64,000 nt of DNA from Escherichia phage FL18, in sequence record PP400780, one strand, 5' to 3'. This document shows, piece by piece, positions 19,519 through 26,068 of this stretch. How positions within the stretch are numbered: the stretch's first letter is position 1; each line of letters begins with the position of its first letter. The notes beneath the pieces are model-generated. The model did no database searches. It was given only the letters and a program-made list of their open reading frames with translations, and was not told the origin of the DNA. The position numbers were made by a program, and so were the translations under genes.

Positions 19519-20154
19519 ATGAAAACTACTCCTATTACTATCGCTATTGACGCAATCATAAAACAAGCTTCTTCTTTGGCCGCTATGGCCAAAGTAATTA
19601 GTCAAAACCCTGCTCGTTATAATGCTATTCTAGAAACTCTTCGACGCCCTGGACTTAGTAATTATGAAAGCCGGGTAATTATTACAGGTGTTGGTAAGAA
19701 TGCTAATATCGCAACTAAAGCTTCCGAGACATTTGCTTCACTAGGTATTCCTAGCATGTATTTGAACACTGGGCATTATTCTCACGGTGATGCAGGATTC
19801 ATTGCGCCTAATGATGTGTTGATTCATATTAGTCGTTCTGGTAAGACTGAAGAAATGATAGGTGTTGCTAAACATCTTCGTATGATTCGTCCTCAGGTTA
19901 AACAGATTCTGTTACATTGTAACCCAGACATTCCACAAGAATACGAAGCTCTTTTTGATTATACGTTCTGTACTGGCATCGCGGTAGAGGTTGATGAGAA
20001 TTCTCTGGCTCCGACTATGTCCACTACATTGTTGTTAGCGCTTATCGATACGTTTGCTATCAACCTTTCGTCTGAACGTGGATTTACCTCTAATGATTTC
20101 CTTAAGTTCCATCCAGGCGGTGCACTAGGTGCCATGTTACGAGGCGAACAATGA
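19519..20154 (+). CDS. SIS-domain sugar-phosphate isomerase, arabinose-5-phosphate isomerase-like (KdsD/KpsF N-domain)
   Basis: 211 aa; VIITGVGKNANIATK, HGDAG, HISRSGKTEE, FHPGGALG match the KdsD/GutQ SIS signature; no CBS domains. Confidence 0.8.
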   Translation: MKTTPITIAIDAIIKQASSLAAMAKVISQNPARYNAILETLRRPGLSNYESRVIITGVGKNANIATKASETFASLGIPSMYLNTGHYSHGDAGFIAPNDVLIHISRSGKTEEMIGVAKHLRMIRPQVKQILLHCNPDIPQEYEALFDYTFCTGIAVEVDENSLAPTMSTTLLLALIDTFAINLSSERGFTSNDFLKFHPGGALGAMLRGEQ

Positions 20155-20280
20155 AAGCAATAACAATAGGACTTTTACTATTGATGCTTGTCATGACTAT
20201 CTACTGGAGCTTAACGGCTCCGGTAATGATTCCAACACTTGTAATTGGATGGATTATGATTGGACTACAAGCAAAGTATG

Positions 20281-20307
20281 AATGCTTTAACTAGAATAGT
20301 GTACAAT
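20281..20307 (+). promoter_or_regulatory. MotA-box middle promoter upstream of nucleotidyltransferase-kinase gene
   Basis: AATGCTTTAA box about 19-20 nt upstream of TACAAT -10. Confidence 0.45.
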
Positions 20308-20335: not shown

Positions 20336-22021
20336 ATGAAAAAAGCTGTTATTCTTGGTGCTGGACTGGCAACTCGTTTGTATCCAATAACGCATCATAT
20401 TCCTAAGGTGCTTGTTAACTATAAACAAGATACTATTCTGAGCAATTTGTATACAATTTATTCTGACCTTGGCGCAGATGAAATTATTGTAGTAGTTCAT
20501 TCAAAATTTGCTGAAACTGTTCGAGCTTATTGTGAACAAGAAGGGTTCAATGTGACTATTCGTACAGTTGATGAAGCGTATGGTTCTGCTTATGCTCTTG
20601 CTAAATTACACAAAGATTTAGACGGCCATAATGTAATTGTTAACTGGTGTGATATTATTCCTGATTTTGGTTCATGGTCTTGGAATGTTAACGCAATCTA
20701 TGTTAAGGGTGACGAATGTCGATATAATTTCGACGGTGAAAATATCACTAACGTAGGTTCAACAGGTGGTAATGTTGTAGGAATTTATCAGTTCAAAGAC
20801 TGGGAATTCTATATGGGTTCTACTGATGAGGAAATTCATGAATACTGCAAAGGACGTGATTTCGTAGAATTCCTTTACGGCAGCGCATTCAATAAATCAG
20901 AGCTTATGAATCTAATTGATTTAGGTGATATGCCTAAACTTGAAAAAGCTCATGAAGTTCGTGAACTTAATCGTAGTTTTAATGCAGTTGAAATTGGTGA
21001 AGAAACTGTAACTAAATTCGCATTAACCGAACAGGGTCGAGCTCTTCAGAAAGATGAGATTTCGTGGTATCTTAAAGTGAAATCAGATTCAGTTCCTCAG
21101 TTAGTTTCTGTTAATGAAAATAACTTTGAAATGGAACGCATTAAAGGTAAGCCTGCATTTGAATATATTAAATCCAAATCAAGTCTTGCTCGTCCACAAA
21201 TTGTTGATGCAATTTTAGATGCACTGAAATTCAGCACAGACACTTATTTTGTAAGTCCTGAAACTGTTCGTCGTGATTTCACTAAAGAATTCTATACGAA
21301 AGTTATTGATCGTTGTGAAAGCATTCAACCATTGATTGATTCATTTGGTAAAATCACACATGTGAACTACACTAAGATTGGACGTCTGAAGCCAATGCTG
21401 AAACAAGCTTTAGAACACCTCATTCGTTATCATAACCGTTCTCAGGGACAGTACTCTGTTATTCACGGTGACCCGAACTTCAGTAATACTATGATTACTG
21501 ATAATGGCGAAGTCAAGTTTATCGACCCTCGTGGATATTTTGGTGAAACCAAGATTTACGGGCCAAAATTGTACGATGAAGCTAAAGTGCTTTATGCTGT
21601 TTCAGGTTATGATGAATTCAATGCTAATCCGACCTGGGGGCAGTTTACTATTGATGAAACAACTTGTAATGTGACTATTAACATCAATCCATTAGTTTAC
21701 AAATATAGAAAGATGAGTTCGTTTAACGAGTATCATCATTTGGCAGTGGCAATTATCTGGATTGCATTAGGCGGTTATTTCAAGAATAATCCACTTAAAG
21801 CGGTAGCCGCATATTATAAAGGTATGGAACTTCTGACTAAGCAATTACGTAACATGGGCCGTGTACTTCAGGACGGCTCTATTAGTTATGACGTAGCAGA
21901 ACCTGTAACGGCTACTCTGATTACAAAAAATCCTGGTAAATGGGTACTAACTGATAAAGAAACTGGTGTTTCCTATCGTCCAATCGGTGGCGATATCACT
22001 CATCAATGGGAACGAATCTAA
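20336..22021 (+). CDS. bifunctional sugar-1-phosphate nucleotidyltransferase / APH-fold sugar kinase
   Basis: 561 aa; N-terminal AVILGAGLATRLYPIT nucleotidyltransferase loop; C-terminal HGDPNFSN...FIDPRG phosphotransferase catalytic/Mg loops. Confidence 0.75.
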   Translation: MKKAVILGAGLATRLYPITHHIPKVLVNYKQDTILSNLYTIYSDLGADEIIVVVHSKFAETVRAYCEQEGFNVTIRTVDEAYGSAYALAKLHKDLDGHNVIVNWCDIIPDFGSWSWNVNAIYVKGDECRYNFDGENITNVGSTGGNVVGIYQFKDWEFYMGSTDEEIHEYCKGRDFVEFLYGSAFNKSELMNLIDLGDMPKLEKAHEVRELNRSFNAVEIGEETVTKFALTEQGRALQKDEISWYLKVKSDSVPQLVSVNENNFEMERIKGKPAFEYIKSKSSLARPQIVDAILDALKFSTDTYFVSPETVRRDFTKEFYTKVIDRCESIQPLIDSFGKITHVNYTKIGRLKPMLKQALEHLIRYHNRSQGQYSVIHGDPNFSNTMITDNGEVKFIDPRGYFGETKIYGPKLYDEAKVLYAVSGYDEFNANPTWGQFTIDETTCNVTININPLVYKYRKMSSFNEYHHLAVAIIWIALGGYFKNNPLKAVAAYYKGMELLTKQLRNMGRVLQDGSISYDVAEPVTATLITKNPGKWVLTDKETGVSYRPIGGDITHQWERI

Positions 22022-22407
22022 TGCACCGTGTAGAAAACATGCTTAATCTTTGTTTTGATGTCGATGATTGTATAACAGAGTGGAATAACAATCGTGATTA
22101 CGTGAACTTCAAACCTGACGTCGAAATGGTGTCTGCCATTAATGCCCTGTATGATGCAGGGCATACCATAACGCTTTACACTGCTCGCGGTATGAAGTCA
22201 GTAGGTCCTGGACGTATAGCAATTGACATTCTCCCAAGTCTGATTCAGAACTTGGAAAACATTGGTTTGAAGTACCATAATTTGCTAACACATAAACCAG
22301 TATATGATTGGATTATCGACGACAAAGCTATGCGTCCTGACGAATTCAAAGCTCTTATGAATAAAGGCGAATTCGAAACATTTAAATCGTATAAACCGAA
22401 TCTATAA
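22021..22407 (+). CDS. HAD-superfamily phosphatase (KdsC-like size)
   Basis: 128 aa from ATG overlapping upstream stop (TAATG); HAD motif I CFDVDDCIT. Confidence 0.65.
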   Translation: MHRVENMLNLCFDVDDCITEWNNNRDYVNFKPDVEMVSAINALYDAGHTITLYTARGMKSVGPGRIAIDILPSLIQNLENIGLKYHNLLTHKPVYDWIIDDKAMRPDEFKALMNKGEFETFKSYKPNL

Positions 22408-22463
22408 TAATTTAAGTAAGACCTGCAAAAACCATCGCGTCAATTAACGTGAGATGCAAAAAA

Positions 22464-23624
22464 ATGAATACTTTTAAAATTGGAACGAATTTTGATTTAG
22501 CTCTTCTTGATAAAATCGTAGAGCTCAATAAAACTTATCCTAATAGCTTGATAAACGAAGTATACGGCTCTACAAGAGAAATGGCTTTTGTAGCAGCCAG
22601 ACCTGATTTTAGGCTTCCTGACGTTGACAAAAAGATGTTAGAAGATTACGTTAAACGTTGTAACGAATTAGGTATTTGCTTTAACTATACACTCAACACG
22701 ATAAATCCTGGTTCAAAAAGAGAACTAGTTGAGTGGAAGAAGAAAGCTATTCAGGATTATGTTCAGTATCTTTGGTCAATAGGTGTATGGCGTATTACTA
22801 TCGCTAACCCTGTTGTTATGGAAATTGTTCGTGAAGTCAATAAAGACATTGAGATTGAAGTTTCAACAATTCTACATGTCGATGCTGTAACTCAAATCAA
22901 ATACTTGCATGACCAGTATAATATCAAAAAGGTCTGCTGTGGAATTCATAAGAACCGTTCAGTTTCTTTCCTGAAGCGTGCAGCAGAGTTTTGCAATAAG
23001 AACAATATAATATTTGAAGTTCTTGTAAATGAGTTCTGTTCTAATGCTGGTAAAGGGTATACAACACATTGTAGCTATCGTGACTCTTGCTATATTTTCC
23101 ATAGTACTGATGTTACAGCTGATGATGCTAAATCCTTAAACGGATATCCTATGCAGCACTGTATTAAAGCTCGTGATACAGACCCATTTAACTGGTTGAG
23201 AACTCGTTTTGTTCGTCCTCAAGATTTGAAACTTTATAATGATATTGGTATCACTCAATTCAAAGTTTCAGGACGTACAGGTAGCACAGACTACATTTTG
23301 AAAGTTCTTGAAGCATACGCTTCTGAAAAGTTTGAAGGTAATTTGTTAGAACTGTGGAAGCCTTTAGAGACTATTTTCACTCTTGAAAACGAAACTGAGT
23401 TTTCACATACAGTAAATATTGAAACCTCTTTGTTAGATGGCTTTTTAGAAAAAAGGTGGTTCAGACATCCAGATTTCGATTGTGCTAATGAAATCTGCGG
23501 GACGACGTGTACATATTGTGAAAGATATTATAAACGTCAATTATCTAAAAACGGGTTAGCAGAAAACTCTATATCTATTATTGATATAACTAACTCTGAT
23601 GACGCTTTGAGGTACCCGGAATGA
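22464..23624 (+). CDS. U32-peptidase-family-like protein (TIM-barrel, Cys-rich)
   Basis: 386 aa from first ATG; N-terminal VYGS..FVAAR..NYTLNT resembles U32 barrel; EFCSNAGKGYTTHCSYRDSC cysteine cluster; family assignment tentative. Confidence 0.45.
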   Translation: MNTFKIGTNFDLALLDKIVELNKTYPNSLINEVYGSTREMAFVAARPDFRLPDVDKKMLEDYVKRCNELGICFNYTLNTINPGSKRELVEWKKKAIQDYVQYLWSIGVWRITIANPVVMEIVREVNKDIEIEVSTILHVDAVTQIKYLHDQYNIKKVCCGIHKNRSVSFLKRAAEFCNKNNIIFEVLVNEFCSNAGKGYTTHCSYRDSCYIFHSTDVTADDAKSLNGYPMQHCIKARDTDPFNWLRTRFVRPQDLKLYNDIGITQFKVSGRTGSTDYILKVLEAYASEKFEGNLLELWKPLETIFTLENETEFSHTVNIETSLLDGFLEKRWFRHPDFDCANEICGTTCTYCERYYKRQLSKNGLAENSISIIDITNSDDALRYPE

Positions 23625-23860
23625 TTTCTAGAAAAACTTTTAATCACCAACTTAATGAAGAGATTTTGACTACGAAACTGAACACTAACGAACAAATTCT
23701 TAAAAAGGCCCTTATGGGCCTGTTTGAAACCAAAGCGGCTAAAGTGATTAAAGGACCTGTTCAATTAGAATATTACGCTGATACATTTCTTCATAGTGTT
23801 CTTGGAAGTATCGATGCTGAAGCTTTACGTTATATCAACATTGCCAAGAAATTCAAATAA
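23621..23860 (+). CDS. hypothetical protein (79 aa)
   Basis: ATGA-coupled ORF inside the cassette. Confidence 0.5.
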   Translation: MISRKTFNHQLNEEILTTKLNTNEQILKKALMGLFETKAAKVIKGPVQLEYYADTFLHSVLGSIDAEALRYINIAKKFK

Positions 23861-23902: not shown

Positions 23903-24619
23903 ATGGGGAAACATAACACAATGAAATATATCAAAGCCGCAGATTTTCAAACCGCATTTAAAGCAGTCAATCGTGAAATTTTAGAAAACCCGGAATTCGT
24001 AACTGATTCTCGTATTGGACGTTGTAATGAAATTGGGTCTATGACAGTAGTTGTTGACACTCCATCATCATTCAAAATGACTGACCCACGTATTAACCGC
24101 ATCTCTTATGAATATGCCGAAGACTTCTGGAAGTTTATGATTTCTGGTGGTACCAACGCAGAAGAAGCGTTTAAGGCATATCCTAATGTCGCTAAATTTA
24201 TTTCTAAACCAAAATCAGATGTTTTGCCGGCGAACTTCAATACTTTCTATGGTCCTCGCATTGCGGCCCAATTACCAGCTCTTCTAAAAGAACTTAAAGA
24301 GAAGCCTAACTCTCGAAGAGTTGTGTTCCAAATTCTAGAAAGTTCTGATCAGGCTTTGCTTGATTCGGATGAAACGCTTGAATATCCATGTACTGACTCA
24401 GTGACTTATTATATTCGTGATGGTAAGCTTTATACCCACTGTCATATGCGTTCTCAGAACTGTGCTGTTGTTATGCAGTTGGATTTTTATCTCCAAGGAA
24501 AATTACTTCATTATATCGCTAACGAATGCGGTGTAGAAGTTGGTGATTATACTCATACCATGGTAAGTGCCCATGTGTTTGAACGTGATTTTGATTATGT
24601 TAAAGGATTCCTTGACTAA
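23903..24619 (+). CDS. thymidylate-synthase-fold pyrimidine hydroxymethylase, divergent (gene 42 position; likely dCMP hydroxymethylase)
   Basis: 238 aa; PNSRRVVFQIL, catalytic-Cys context YPCTDSVTYYIRDGKL, MRSQN, HTMVSAHVFERDF align with T4 gp42/TS motifs but overall divergent. Confidence 0.65.
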   Translation: MGKHNTMKYIKAADFQTAFKAVNREILENPEFVTDSRIGRCNEIGSMTVVVDTPSSFKMTDPRINRISYEYAEDFWKFMISGGTNAEEAFKAYPNVAKFISKPKSDVLPANFNTFYGPRIAAQLPALLKELKEKPNSRRVVFQILESSDQALLDSDETLEYPCTDSVTYYIRDGKLYTHCHMRSQNCAVVMQLDFYLQGKLLHYIANECGVEVGDYTHTMVSAHVFERDFDYVKGFLD

Positions 24620-25518
24620 TGGCTATTTTCCGCGTACCAATCTTGAGTATGCGGTCTTATGAAACTGGACAGTATGCTATCCTTAAGGATGGCAACTTCC
24701 AACTTCATTTGCACCGTGCTAATCCGGGTGATGTGATTACATATCCACGTAATGCATCTGATATTAAAGAATGCGAACGTCTTTTCCCAGAATTTAAGTT
24801 TGTTCCATTATGGTATAAAGATAACGCTTATAACACTCGTAAATATTTCTGGTCTGAAAATGAATTTGTGGTTGATTCATTAATTGCTTATTATGATTGC
24901 GATTTTCTAATCACAGATATAACTGGATATGACGGCGCTTTTGATGTAGAATTCAATTTCAATATCACTGCAGACCCTAATAAACCACGTTTTTATATTG
25001 ACGAATTCTTAAAAACCGACATGTTGTCGGTTAATCGTTCAATCCAAACAACTGTGTTGAATGAACGTCAAAAAGAAGTGCTGGTTAACGCAGGTGCAGA
25101 TGGTAATAAGATTATCGTAACGCAGAAAGTTATACGTCCTTCCATCATGCAGCGTCTTGTAGGTGATTTGGCTCCTATTTATCTAGATGGTATTTTTCAT
25201 CCATTTCGAATTAGTGACCCGTGCTATCGTTTTGAACAAGTGGTTGAATGTGCAATTCAATTAGGTCAACCGCTTTATATAACCGATCCAAATAATAGCT
25301 TTGACAGAAATAAGTATCCTGAAGAAGCGTTGATTCGAATTTTTAAACCAACTAAAACTGAGTACTATCAAATTCTTAAAGGACGTCCGAAGATTCAATA
25401 TTTCGAAAATCCTGAAGAGGTATTTCATCCAGGTCTTGGTGAGTTCATCTACTTTAATGCTTTAATTTCTTCACCGTATAATATACCTAAATATGAAGAT
25501 GTCGTAATCGAGGAATAA
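24619..25518 (+). CDS. hypothetical protein at beta-glucosyltransferase locus (candidate DNA sugar transferase)
   Basis: 299 aa; no similarity to T4 beta-gt noticed; function by position only. Confidence 0.5.
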   Translation: MAIFRVPILSMRSYETGQYAILKDGNFQLHLHRANPGDVITYPRNASDIKECERLFPEFKFVPLWYKDNAYNTRKYFWSENEFVVDSLIAYYDCDFLITDITGYDGAFDVEFNFNITADPNKPRFYIDEFLKTDMLSVNRSIQTTVLNERQKEVLVNAGADGNKIIVTQKVIRPSIMQRLVGDLAPIYLDGIFHPFRISDPCYRFEQVVECAIQLGQPLYITDPNNSFDRNKYPEEALIRIFKPTKTEYYQILKGRPKIQYFENPEEVFHPGLGEFIYFNALISSPYNIPKYEDVVIEE

Positions 25519-25519
25519 A

Positions 25520-26068
25520 ATGGCTAAAATTATTTTAGTAGATGGCCCGGATAATGCTGGTAAAACAACTTTCATTAATGACATAATGGAAATTAGTGAA
25601 AGATATGTAAAAATTGATTTCCCTAAACGAACAGTTGATGGACGTTTCGATGTTAAGTCTCGAAATGAAGTTGGCTGTTTTGAAACGATGTTGAATTATT
25701 TAGACCCTACTAAGATTTATCTGTTAGACCGTGGATATATTAGTAACTGGGTTTACGGACGTATTCGACAAGATGCGGACTCGGTTCTTGACGTTTATGA
25801 ACAGGATTATATTCGTCTTTGCCAAAACCATGATGTGTTCACAATTATTTTAACACGTAACGAAATGACTGAAAGTTTTGAAGACGACCTTATTACTTTG
25901 TCTTCATTCGGTTTTAATACAGTCATTTCACATTTTGAAGAGTTTGCAATTCATAACAAAATCCAAACGTATCAATTACTTAATCATGATGGTGCTAACA
26001 AAGTTATAGGATTTAATGCAAGCGAACGTAATGGTTTGATTACAGAAATCATCAAATGGGCTCGTTAA
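25520..26068 (+). CDS. P-loop nucleotide kinase, thymidylate-kinase-like
   Basis: 182 aa; Walker A VDGPDNAGKTT, LLDRGY (DRY/H-like) motif. Confidence 0.65.
   Translation: MAKIILVDGPDNAGKTTFINDIMEISERYVKIDFPKRTVDGRFDVKSRNEVGCFETMLNYLDPTKIYLLDRGYISNWVYGRIRQDADSVLDVYEQDYIRLCQNHDVFTIILTRNEMTESFEDDLITLSSFGFNTVISHFEEFAIHNKIQTYQLLNHDGANKVIGFNASERNGLITEIIKWAR

What the first reader, a model, noticed from the sequence alone, without database searches (positions are those of the whole stretch)
20336..22021. Single polypeptide fusing a sugar-phosphate nucleotidyltransferase to an APH-fold kinase
The N-terminal ~230 aa carry the GxGTRL-type loop (AVILGAGLATRLYPIT) of sugar-1-phosphate nucleotidyltransferases. 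The C-terminal ~230 aa carry HGDPNFSN and FIDPRG, typical of the catalytic and Mg-binding loops of aminoglycoside/choline/anomeric-sugar kinases. Fusion of an anomeric kinase with a pyrophosphorylase is the logic of salvage routes (AmgK/MurU, fucokinase/GDP-fucose pyrophosphorylase). It would turn a free sugar directly into an NDP-sugar, and the next gene (HAD phosphatase, start overlaps TAATG) could supply that free sugar from a sugar phosphate. Which nucleotide and which sugar are used cannot be read from sequence.
Basis: partly seen in the sequence, partly recalled or inferred. Interest (0 to 1): 0.7.

Follow-up and report, generated by a model that had tools for sequence, protein, structure and literature searches.

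The report
Phage UDP-arabinose synthase, kinase–pyrophosphorylase fusion
This gene of an RB69-like coliphage really does fuse a sugar kinase to a sugar-nucleotide pyrophosphorylase, but it is the already published enzyme that makes the activated arabinose these phages attach to their DNA cytosines.

Summary
Window 20336-22021 (+) is one 561-aa ORF. It has an N-terminal sugar-1-phosphate nucleotidyltransferase domain (aa 1-205), an APH/choline-kinase-fold kinase domain (aa 209-507) and a 54-aa C-terminal tail. All catalytic residues are invariant across 50 homologues. The structure models are confident (pLDDT 94).

The window is a Mosigvirus (RB69-like T4-type coliphage). The protein is 99.5% identical to RB69 gp52:53. 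NAR 2026 (PMC13326640) equates that protein with AfhE of phage HY126. It reports AfhE, citing He et al. (Nat Chem Biol 2026), as a bifunctional D-arabinose-5-phosphate kinase / UDP-D-arabinose pyrophosphorylase for arabinosylating 5-hydroxycytosine in phage DNA.

The enzyme classes, the NDP-sugar product and arabinose are all correct. The pathway order is not. The kinase takes arabinose-5-phosphate, not a free sugar. The downstream HAD phosphatase acts between the two fused activities, removing the 5-phosphate from arabinose-1,5-bisphosphate. The logic is that of the ADP-/GDP-heptose pathways, not salvage.

Novelty: already known. Interest: low.

The most interesting side observation is the neighbouring U32-family gene. 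In 54 related phage records a chorismate mutase gene lies in the same cluster, directly downstream of U32 in the two loci I inspected. This suggests an unreported, oxygen-independent, prephenate-dependent route to 5-hydroxycytosine.

The parts
20336..22021 (+). Bifunctional arabinose-5-phosphate 1-kinase / arabinose-1-phosphate uridylyltransferase. It is the AfhE-type protein and the orthologue of RB69 gp52:53. 561 aa plus stop.
   Evidence: ORF. 99.5% aa identity to RB69 ORF053c+052c and 99.1% to Bas46 'putative enzyme involved in UDP-arabinose biosynthesis'. PHROG 4098 matches full length at E 3e-295. AF2 pLDDT 94.1.
20336..20950 (+). N-terminal sugar-1-phosphate nucleotidyltransferase domain, aa 1-205. 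Key elements are the loop GAGLATRL (aa 8-15), K24, D106 and D195-x-G-D198/K201.
   Evidence: Pfam NTP_transferase E 8.5e-10. Profile search against the PDB gives HddC at 1.6e-13 and LicC at 1e-11. Foldseek matches RmlA/MurU/LicC/HddC. G10, R14, K24, D106, D195, G197, D198 and K201 are invariant in 50 homologues.
20960..21856 (+). APH/choline-kinase-fold (eukaryotic-like) kinase domain, aa 209-507. It has the beta3 Lys K227, the alphaC Glu E241, the catalytic loop HGDPNFSN (D379, N384) and the Mg-binding FIDPRG (D397).
21857..22018 (+). C-terminal 54-aa tail, aa 508-561. It is mostly coil with short strands. T530, K535, W536, Y547 and W558 are conserved. Function unknown; it may be a docking element for the small phosphatase.
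   Evidence: Present in 32 of 50 aligned homologues and absent in 18. pLDDT 80-90. In the loci examined, its presence goes with a small cap-less HAD next door.
22021..22407 (+). Small cap-less HAD phosphatase of the AfhF type, orthologue of RB69 gp51. It removes the 5-phosphate of arabinose-1,5-bisphosphate. Its start overlaps the stop of the fusion gene (TAATG).
   Evidence: NCBIfam TIGR01689 EcbF/BcbF capsule phosphatase at 1.9e-13. PHROG 1238. PDB 9iqw is 127/128 identical from MHRVENM, and 1xpj matches at 1.4e-10. Role taken from PMC13326640.
19519..20154 (+). Arabinose-5-phosphate isomerase (KdsD/GutQ-like SIS domain), orthologue of RB69 gp55. It converts ribulose-5-P to arabinose-5-P, the substrate of the kinase domain.
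   Evidence: Pfam SIS. NCBIfam KpsF/GutQ at 5e-32 and KdsD at 2e-30. PHROG 5670. PDB 3etn, 5uqi and 2xhz.
23903..24619 (+). Thymidylate-synthase homologue, the flavin/O2-dependent 5-hydroxy-dCMP synthase (orthologue of RB69 gp48). It makes the base that receives the arabinose.
   Evidence: Pfam Thymidylat_synt. PDB 9iqc/9ir2/9iqu are near-identical (E 8e-161). The sequence 'RSQN' at aa 183-186 carries the D169N signature given in PMC13326640.
24619..25518 (+). Putative DNA arabinosyltransferase 1 (orthologue of RB69 gp46:47), the consumer of the NDP-arabinose.
   Evidence: PHROG 3891 at 1e-155. Same position as RB69 ORF047c+046c. Role predicted in PMC13326640 Table 1. No Pfam or PDB sequence hit.
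25520..26068 (+). Thymidylate-kinase-like nucleotide kinase (orthologue of RB69 gp45). It is a conserved member of the module.
   Evidence: PHROG 761. Synteny in RB69, Bas46, LC53, IME08, DLP1, Klebsiella phage and metagenomic T4-like phages.
22449..23624 (+). U32-family protein (orthologue of RB69 gp50), with no role assigned in the literature I could read. My hypothesis is an O2-independent, prephenate-dependent hydroxylase.
   Evidence: Pfam Peptidase_U32 at 7.5e-11. Weak UbiU hit. At least 80% identity in all 221 phage records that carry it. Followed by a chorismate mutase gene in LC53 and in a Klebsiella phage; homologues of that chorismate mutase occur in 54 phage records.

Best explanation
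The gene encodes the AfhE-type bifunctional enzyme of the phage pathway that makes UDP-D-arabinofuranose for glycosylating 5-hydroxycytosine in virion DNA.

Proposed steps:
1. The isomerase (19519-20154), or the host enzyme KdsD, converts ribulose-5-P to D-arabinose-5-P.
2. The C-terminal APH-fold kinase domain of this protein uses ATP to phosphorylate the anomeric C1-OH, giving arabinofuranose-1,5-bisphosphate.
3. The small HAD phosphatase encoded immediately downstream (22021-22407) removes the 5-phosphate.
4. The N-terminal nucleotidyltransferase domain condenses arabinofuranose-1-P with UTP, giving UDP-Araf plus PPi.
5. The glycosyltransferase at 24619-25518, and a second one elsewhere in the genome, transfer arabinose to 5-hydroxycytosine. 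That base was made as 5ho-dCMP by the ThyA homologue at 23903-24619.

What is shown here: both folds, intact catalytic residues, near-identity to RB69 gp52:53, and the conserved gene module.

What is taken from the literature at second hand: the substrates (Ara5P, UTP) and the order of steps.

What is inferred: phosphorylating the 5-phosphate ester keeps the sugar locked as a furanose, so no mutase is needed.
For: Identity:
- The window is a Mosigvirus. Its DNA is 97.8-99.3% identical to RB69, JM17 and APCEc01 across the cluster.
- The protein is 99.5% identical to RB69 ORF053c+052c.
- Gene order is the same as in RB69 and Bas46.

Literature:
- The same paper equates gp51 with AfhF, an Mg-dependent phosphatase acting on Araf-1,5-P2.
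- It shows that RB69 DNA carries arabinosylated 5-hydroxycytosine.
- PDB entries 9iqw and 9iqc/9ir2/9iqu are near-identical to the window's phosphatase and ThyA homologue. The very cluster in this window has therefore been studied structurally.

Folds and catalytic residues.

Functional coupling:
- The fusion gene is followed directly by a HAD phosphatase and a ThyA homologue even at 35% identity, in marine and jumbo T4-like phages. The phosphatase type is sometimes replaced.
- Giant-virus-like contigs encode HAD-SIS-NTase-kinase as one polypeptide.

Correlation with chemistry: homologues occur in phages reported to carry arabinosyl or pentosyl cytosine. These are Bas46, LC53, 92A1, the DLP group and Thanatos.

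Analogy: the best profile hit of the NTase domain in the PDB is HddC. HddC is the heptose-1-P guanylyltransferase that follows the GmhB phosphatase in the isomerase-kinase-phosphatase-NTase heptose pathway.
Against: - I could not read the primary biochemical paper (He et al. 2026). I do not have the HY126 AfhE sequence, so the equation with AfhE goes through RB69 and through the near-identical PDB entries, whose phage of origin I infer.
- Table 1 of PMC13326640 lists the alternative free-sugar order as the putative function.
- The window protein itself does not reach any Pfam kinase threshold.
- No structural neighbour is a pentose-phosphate kinase, so substrate specificity is not supported by homology.
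- The choice of UTP cannot be read from the sequence.
Confidence: 0.85

Rival explanations
1. Free-sugar (salvage-type) order. The HAD phosphatase first hydrolyses arabinose-5-P to free D-arabinose. The kinase domain then phosphorylates its anomeric OH. The NTase domain then makes NDP-arabinose.
For: - The same folds are used in true anomeric-kinase/pyrophosphorylase salvage pairs such as AmgK/MurU. MurU is among the Foldseek hits.
- PMC13326640 Table 1 lists exactly this order as the putative function of RB69 gp51 and gp52:53.
Against: - The text of the same paper reports the measured activities of the HY126 enzymes as Ara5P kinase and bisphosphate phosphatase.
- Free D-arabinose would equilibrate largely to the pyranose form, whereas the DNA adduct and the proposed donor are furanose (chemical reasoning is mine).
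- The phosphatase is a cap-less HAD whose structural neighbours include the heptose-1,7-bisphosphate phosphatase GmhB, according to PMC13326640.
Confidence: 0.1
2. The architecture and pathway are the same but the product differs. The enzyme activates arabinose with another nucleotide (GTP, CTP or dTTP), or activates a different pentose.
For: - The nucleotide cannot be read from the sequence.
- The nearest sequence relatives of the NTase domain use CTP (LicC), GTP (HddC, GMPP), dTTP (RmlA) and UTP (MurU, GalU).
- PMC13326640 writes 'NDP-arabinose, potentially UDP-arabinose' for RB69.
Against: - He et al. are reported to have shown UDP-D-arabinose formation by HY126 AfhE.
- Arabinose is the sugar found on RB69 DNA.
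- The arabinose-5-P isomerase lies two genes upstream.
Confidence: 0.04
3. The protein is a LicC-LicA-like fusion that activates a small alcohol such as choline (kinase, then CTP:phospho-alcohol cytidylyltransferase) and has nothing to do with sugars.
For: - The best single-sequence PDB hit of the N-domain is LicC, the CTP:phosphocholine cytidylyltransferase (E 2e-5).
Against: - Identities are only 10-20%.
- The gene sits in a conserved module with a pentose-phosphate isomerase, a sugar-phosphate-type phosphatase, a glycosyltransferase and the cytosine hydroxylase.
- The four activities are fused with a SIS isomerase in other viruses.
- Published biochemistry points to arabinose.
Confidence: 0.01

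Closest known systems
AfhE of Escherichia phage HY126 (He et al., Nat Chem Biol 2026), RB69 gp52:53 and Acinetobacter phage DLP3 gp82 (Lee et al., NAR 2026, PMC13326640)
   Same: - Same two-domain architecture.
- Same neighbours: isomerase, HAD phosphatase, ThyA-type cytosine hydroxylase, glycosyltransferase and TMK-like kinase.
- 99.5% identical to RB69 gp52:53 and about 57% to proteins of the DLP group.
   Different: Nothing of substance. The window's ORF is intact. The RB69 GenBank record has an extra C at codon 218 that splits the gene exactly at the domain boundary.
ADP-heptose and GDP-heptose pathways: GmhA (SIS isomerase), then HldE kinase domain or HddA, then GmhB (HAD phosphatase), then HldE adenylyltransferase domain or HddC
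   Same: - Identical logic: ketose-phosphate isomerase, anomeric kinase acting on the sugar phosphate, removal of the distal phosphate from the bisphosphate, then nucleotidyl transfer.
- In HldE, steps 2 and 4 are also fused while the phosphatase is separate.
- The isomerase (SIS), the phosphatase (HAD) and the NTase (HddC is the top profile hit) belong to the same superfamilies.
   Different: - The kinase is an APH/protein-kinase-like fold here, not a ribokinase (HldE) or GHMP (HddA) fold.
- The HldE transferase is a cytidylyltransferase-fold domain and its domain order is reversed.
- The substrate is a pentose, and the product serves DNA rather than LPS.
AmgK/MurU (MurNAc/GlcNAc anomeric kinase plus MurNAc-1-P uridylyltransferase) and NahK-type anomeric kinases
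   Same: Both halves have the same folds, an APH-like anomeric kinase and a minimal sugar-1-P uridylyltransferase. MurU and NahK are among the structural hits.
   Different: - They are separate genes and form a true salvage route from a free sugar.
- No phosphatase step is involved.
- Sequence identity is about 15%.
Bifunctional fucokinase/GDP-fucose pyrophosphorylase (FKP) and the trypanosomatid arabino/fucokinase-pyrophosphorylases
   Same: A kinase and a pyrophosphorylase in one chain that produce an NDP-sugar.
   Different: The kinase is a GHMP fold. The routes are free-sugar salvage and the products are GDP-sugars. They are not homologous in the kinase half (established knowledge; not tested here).
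5-methylthioribose kinase (MtnK)
   Different: Stand-alone enzyme with a different 5-substituent and a different pathway (methionine salvage).

Membership tests
AfhE-type bifunctional Ara5P kinase / UDP-Ara pyrophosphorylase (phage 5-arabinosyl-hydroxycytosine pathway) | N-terminal sugar-1-P nucleotidyltransferase domain with an intact catalytic loop and acidic residues | tested here: met
   Pfam NTP_transferase E 8.5e-10. Foldseek to RmlA/MurU/LicC/HddC. G10, R14, K24, D106, D195 and D198 invariant.
AfhE-type bifunctional Ara5P kinase / UDP-Ara pyrophosphorylase (phage 5-arabinosyl-hydroxycytosine pathway) | C-terminal APH/ELK-fold kinase domain with catalytic Lys/Glu, HxDxxxxN and a DFG-equivalent Asp | tested here: met
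AfhE-type bifunctional Ara5P kinase / UDP-Ara pyrophosphorylase (phage 5-arabinosyl-hydroxycytosine pathway) | Close sequence relationship to a described member | tested here: met
   99.5% to RB69 gp52:53 and 99.1% to Bas46_0146. The neighbouring phosphatase and hydroxylase are near-identical to PDB 9iqw and 9iqc.
AfhE-type bifunctional Ara5P kinase / UDP-Ara pyrophosphorylase (phage 5-arabinosyl-hydroxycytosine pathway) | Genomic module with an AfhF-type HAD phosphatase, a ThyA-type 5ho-dCMP synthase and a DNA arabinosyltransferase | tested here: met
   Window genes at 22021-22407, 23903-24619 (RSQN signature) and 24619-25518. Same order as RB69/Bas46.
AfhE-type bifunctional Ara5P kinase / UDP-Ara pyrophosphorylase (phage 5-arabinosyl-hydroxycytosine pathway) | Enzymatic activities: ATP-dependent 1-phosphorylation of Ara5P, and UTP plus Ara-1-P giving UDP-Ara | not testable with these tools
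   Reported for HY126 AfhE by He et al. 2026, as cited in PMC13326640. The primary paper is not held.
Free-sugar anomeric kinase / pyrophosphorylase salvage systems (AmgK/MurU, FKP) | The kinase substrate is an unphosphorylated sugar and no phosphatase is needed | tested here: not met
   A phosphatase gene is invariably adjacent or fused. The reported substrate is Ara5P.
HldE (bifunctional heptose-7-P kinase / heptose-1-P adenylyltransferase) | Ribokinase-fold kinase domain and cytidylyltransferase-fold (HIGH-motif) transferase domain | tested here: not met
   The kinase is APH/choline-kinase fold. The transferase is RmlA/MurU-like. It works like HldE but is not a member.

The most novel reading that the evidence does not exclude
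The cluster that contains this gene may encode a second, oxygen-independent way of making 5-hydroxycytosine.

- The neighbouring U32-family protein (22449-23624) belongs to the family of RlhA (23S rRNA ho5C2501), TrhP (tRNA ho5U34) and UbiU/UbiV. These are prephenate-dependent, O2-independent hydroxylases.
- In 54 related phage records a chorismate mutase gene, which makes prephenate, lies in this cluster. It sits directly after the U32 gene in the two loci I inspected.
- The U32 protein would let gut phages hydroxylate cytosine under anoxia, when the published flavin/O2-dependent ThyA homologue cannot work.

For the fusion protein itself, the least conventional reading not excluded concerns its 54-aa C-terminal tail. 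The tail may dock the small cap-less phosphatase, so that the three steps run in one channelling complex.
Probability: 0.35. Interest if true: 0.7.

Novelty: already known. Interest (0 to 1): 0.22.

Why it matters
The enzyme supplies the activated sugar for a DNA hypermodification, mono- to tri-arabinosylated 5-hydroxycytosine. This modification protects a large group of T4-like phages, including therapeutic candidates against E. coli, Klebsiella, Acinetobacter and Serratia, from restriction enzymes and other defences.

Because the function was published in 2025-2026, the finding itself adds no new biology. It does show that the first-stage reader can recognise a real bifunctional enzyme from raw sequence.

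What remains of value:
- The correction of the pathway logic: a bisphosphate intermediate, as in the heptose pathways.
- The side observations listed below, above all the U32 plus chorismate mutase pair.

Tried and rejected
Searches that led nowhere:
- The primary paper of He et al. 2026 is not in the library.
- Text searches for AfhE/AfhF, HY126, 'ara-hC' and arabinofuranosylation returned only secondary citations.
- I therefore could not obtain the HY126 AfhE sequence or the kinetic data.
- Sequence search of the fusion protein against the PDB found no close entry, only distant NTases.
- The U32 protein and the glycosyltransferase have no PDB sequence relatives.

Kinase domain: Pfam on the window protein alone gives only sub-threshold kinase hits. 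I did not accept these until family-wide scans and structure comparison agreed.

Test of the window's 79-aa ORF (23621-23860) as a chorismate mutase:
- It sits where other phages have a chorismate mutase.
- It has no Pfam hit even at E 10.
- BLASTP gives no significant similarity, and it does not align convincingly.
- I rejected it as a recognisable chorismate mutase.

Rejected readings:
- A LicC/LicA-type choline-activating fusion, and a GlmU annotation as carried by several GenBank records. There is no acetyltransferase domain, and the context is pentose metabolism.
- The 'phosphoheptose isomerase' label on the downstream gene (PHROG 1238 and several RefSeq records). It is a HAD phosphatase.
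Full report
**What is at the coordinates.**
- Window 20336-22021 (+) is a single ORF of 561 codons with an ATG start.
- A GAGGA ribosome-binding site lies 8 nt upstream.
- The stop codon overlaps the start of the next gene in TAATG at 22019-22023.
- All genes in this part of the window lie on the + strand, tightly packed, at about 37% G+C.

**Where the window comes from.**
- The 4.3 kb around the gene is 98-99.3% identical to about 150 Escherichia and Shigella phage genomes of the genus Mosigvirus, including JM17, APCEc01, PhAPEC2 and RB69.
- An 11.7-kb stretch aligns to RB69 at 97.8% identity.
- Gene order in the window, from upstream to downstream: gp43 DNA polymerase, arabinose-5-phosphate isomerase, a 47-aa hydrophobic ORF, the fusion gene, a small HAD phosphatase, a U32-family protein, a 79-aa ORF, a thymidylate-synthase homologue, a 299-aa protein, a thymidylate-kinase-like protein, then UvsX.
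- This order is the same as in RB69 and in BASEL phage Bas46.

**The two domains are real.**

N-terminal domain:
- It passes Pfam's threshold for NTP_transferase (E 8.5e-10, aa 3-99).
- A profile of 50 homologues finds HddC, LicC, GDP-mannose pyrophosphorylases and RmlA in the PDB.

Kinase domain:
- The window protein alone gives only sub-threshold hits to fructosamine kinase, EcKL and RIO.
- 21 of the 50 family members reach Pfam APH.

Structure models:
- AlphaFold models built on the family alignment are confident: full length pLDDT 94.1 and pTM 0.91, C-terminal part pLDDT 94.2.
- Foldseek aligns the N-domain with RmlA, MurU, LicC and HddC.
- Foldseek aligns the C-domain with APH(2'') and with choline and ethanolamine kinases.

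Catalytic residues invariant in all 50 sequences:
- N-domain: G10, R14, K24, D106, D195 and D198.
- Kinase domain: K227, E241, D379, N384 and D397. H377 is conserved in 49 of 50.

**Selection.**
- Against RB69 the gene differs at 29 synonymous and 3 non-synonymous codons.
- The gene is found in 373 phage records from hosts including Escherichia, Acinetobacter, Klebsiella, Vibrio, Serratia, Proteus, Yersinia and Shewanella.
- The RB69 GenBank record has one extra C at codon 218, which splits the gene into ORF053c and ORF052c at the domain boundary. PMC13326640 treats this as a sequencing error.

**What it does.**
- Lee et al. (NAR 2026, PMC13326640) show that RB69 and Acinetobacter phage DLP3 replace cytosine by mono- to tri-arabinosylated 5-hydroxycytosine. 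They also show that the thymidylate-synthase homologue makes 5-hydroxy-dCMP.
- They model RB69 gp52:53 as an NTase-kinase fusion and equate it with AfhE of phage HY126. According to their account of He et al. [quoted passage not shown]
- AfhF, the equivalent of RB69 gp51 and of the window's 22021-22407 gene, is an Mg-dependent phosphatase that converts arabinofuranose-1,5-bisphosphate to arabinofuranose-1-phosphate.
- The window protein is 99.5% identical to RB69 gp52:53.
- The PDB holds entries near-identical to two neighbouring genes. 9iqw, 'Capsule biosynthesis protein', is 127/128 identical to the phosphatase and starts at the TAATG start codon. 9iqc/9ir2/9iqu, 'Thymidylate synthase', match the ThyA homologue. 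I infer from their names and accession numbers that they come from the HY126 work.
- In 2021 the Bas46 record already called this gene a 'putative enzyme involved in UDP-arabinose biosynthesis'.

- The enzyme classes, the NDP-sugar product and the involvement of the phosphatase are right.
- The order of steps is not. The reported route runs ribulose-5-P, arabinose-5-P, arabinose-1,5-bisphosphate, arabinose-1-P, UDP-arabinofuranose. The phosphatase therefore acts between the two fused activities, and there is no free sugar.
- I add one chemical argument, which is inference. A 5-phosphorylated pentose can only be a furanose, and once C1 is phosphorylated the ring stays locked. This order delivers a furanose donor without a mutase. 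Free arabinose would be mostly pyranose.
- The logic matches the ADP-heptose and GDP-heptose pathways (GmhA; HldE or HddA; GmhB; HldE or HddC). The isomerase, phosphatase and NTase there share superfamilies with the enzymes here. HddC is the best profile hit of the N-domain.
- The kinase, however, is of a different fold from HldE or HddA.
- Caveat: I could not read He et al., and Table 1 of PMC13326640 still lists the free-sugar order. I give the bisphosphate order about 0.85.

**Independent support for functional coupling.**
- At 34-37% identity the fusion gene is still followed directly by a HAD phosphatase and a thymidylate-synthase homologue. This holds in uncultured marine T4-like phages and in a 350-kb phage contig.
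- In some of these the phosphatase is of another HAD type (Hydrolase_3, about 180 aa). That is a replacement in place and argues for a required phosphatase step.
- In Dhakavirus IME08 and in the Klebsiella phage examined, no isomerase is annotated in the cluster. This is consistent with arabinose-5-P being available from the host's KDO pathway (established knowledge).
- About a dozen distant homologues of 890-955 aa combine the domains in one chain. P0084 and P0091, which I scanned, read HAD, then SIS isomerase, then the region homologous to the window's NTase-kinase fusion; Pfam picks up only the NTase part in P0084 and only a sub-cutoff APH hit in P0091.
- One of these, P0084, lies between MutS7-HNH and RNA polymerase genes, which is a giant-virus context.

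**Novelty and score.**
- The gene, its architecture, its pathway and, for a near-identical protein, its activities are published. I rate it 'already known' and of low interest as a finding.

**Side observations that may be new.**

(a) The U32-family protein next door (22449-23624).
- It has no assigned role in PMC13326640, where it is listed as 'sugar or heterocycle reductase'. The paper contains no mention of prephenate or chorismate.
- It is at least 80% identical in all 221 phage records that carry it. This is far more conserved than the fusion protein, which falls to 43-54% in the same phages.
- Among the ten host genera the tool lists by name it occurs in phages of Enterobacterales, plus Shewanella. 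It is not among those for Acinetobacter, which has 57 records with the fusion gene, and the one Acinetobacter locus I inspected has no U32 gene. It is also absent from the Dhakavirus IME08 cluster.
- In Serratia phage LC53 the gene immediately after it is a bona fide type II chorismate mutase (Pfam CM_2, E 1.7e-11). The Klebsiella phage I inspected has a homologous small ORF in the same position.
- Homologues of that chorismate mutase occur in 54 phage records, where the annotated features under the match are typically a U32 'peptidase' and/or a thymidylate-synthase homologue.
- From established knowledge, U32 proteins such as RlhA, TrhP and UbiU/UbiV are O2-independent, prephenate-dependent hydroxylases. 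RlhA makes 5-hydroxycytidine in rRNA.
- I therefore suggest an anaerobic route to 5-hydroxycytosine. No paper in the searchable library makes this link. He et al. and Mahler et al. could not be checked.
- In the window itself, the ORF after U32 shows no chorismate mutase similarity.

(b) The C-terminal tail of the fusion protein.
- It is present in 32 of 50 homologues.
- In every locus examined, tail-bearing proteins are followed by a small 111-133-aa phosphatase-position ORF without a cap domain. Tail-less ones sit next to, or are fused to, larger capped HADs.
- This suggests a docking role. The number of loci examined is small.

Noticed in passing
window 22449-23624 (+); L006:5992-7502; L009:6001-7403: The U32-family gene in the arabinosylation cluster is at least 80% identical across all 221 phage records that carry it. 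Among the host genera listed by name these are Enterobacterales plus Shewanella; Acinetobacter is not among them and the one Acinetobacter locus inspected lacks it. In LC53 and in a Klebsiella phage a chorismate mutase gene lies directly after it, and homologues of that gene occur in 54 phage records. U32 relatives (RlhA, TrhP, UbiU/V) are prephenate-dependent, O2-independent hydroxylases, so this may be an anaerobic route to 5-hydroxycytosine. No role is assigned in the literature I could read.
   Followed up: partly
window 23621-23860 (+): This 79-aa ORF (RB69ORF049c) occupies the position where other genera have the chorismate mutase. It shows no detectable similarity to it or to any Pfam family. 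It is either a replacement or diverged beyond recognition.
   Followed up: partly
window 21857-22018 (+), aa 508-561 of the fusion protein: The C-terminal tail has conserved T530, K535, W536, Y547 and W558. It is present in 32/50 homologues. In the loci examined it co-occurs with a small cap-less HAD next door, while tail-less homologues go with larger capped or fused HADs. It may be a docking element.
   Followed up: partly
P0084/L001:8001-10781; also P0088, P0089, P0091, P0092, P0095, P0109: These are single polypeptides of 890-955 aa. P0084 and P0091, scanned here, read HAD, then SIS isomerase, then the region homologous to the NTase-kinase fusion. P0084 lies in a giant-virus-like context, next to MutS7-HNH and RNA polymerase subunits. 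P0091 comes from a eukaryotic transcriptome. Other variants carry a cupin/mannose-6-P-isomerase-like C-terminus (P0107, P0112).
   Followed up: partly
window 20151-20294 (+): A 47-aa strongly hydrophobic ORF lies between the isomerase and the fusion gene, and its start overlaps the isomerase stop (ATGA). An equivalent small ORF is annotated in Bas46 and in LC53 ('transmembrane segment'). RB69 annotates a shorter ORF054c there. Function unknown.
   Followed up: no
L004:5001-6687 (RB69, AY303349) versus window 20336-22021: The RB69 reference record has one extra C at codon 218, exactly at the domain boundary. This splits the gene into ORF053c and ORF052c. The window and almost all other records (363 of 373 cover at least 80% of the protein in one place) have the intact ORF.
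   Followed up: yes
window 23903-24619 (+): The thymidylate-synthase homologue carries 'RSQN' (aa 183-186), which is the D169N signature proposed for 5-hydroxy-dCMP synthases. By my own by-eye alignment to E. coli ThyA, an Asp sits at the position of ThyA N177. PDB 9iqc/9ir2/9iqu are near-identical. GenBank records mostly still call it dCMP hydroxymethylase or thymidylate synthase.
   Followed up: partly
L010:4368-4892 and L012:4037-4588: In distant jumbo or T4-like phage contigs that carry the same fusion-HAD-ThyA-homologue module, a Flavodoxin_2/FMN-reductase-like gene lies a few genes upstream, next to the SIS isomerase. It may be a flavin-reducing partner for the flavin-dependent cytosine hydroxylase.
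   Followed up: no
L007 (IME08), L009 (Klebsiella phage), L008 (DLP1): The module varies between phages. No isomerase is annotated in the Dhakavirus and Klebsiella phage clusters. U32 is absent from Dhakavirus and from the Acinetobacter phage. The fusion, HAD, ThyA homologue, glycosyltransferase and TMK-like kinase are always present.
   Followed up: partly
L015:5001-6578 (P0115): A tail-less homologue sits on a 133-kb metagenomic contig with no thymidylate-synthase homologue nearby. Its neighbours are a HAD_2 phosphatase, a sulfotransferase and capsule-type glycosyltransferases. The family is therefore probably also used for glycans other than DNA.
   Followed up: no
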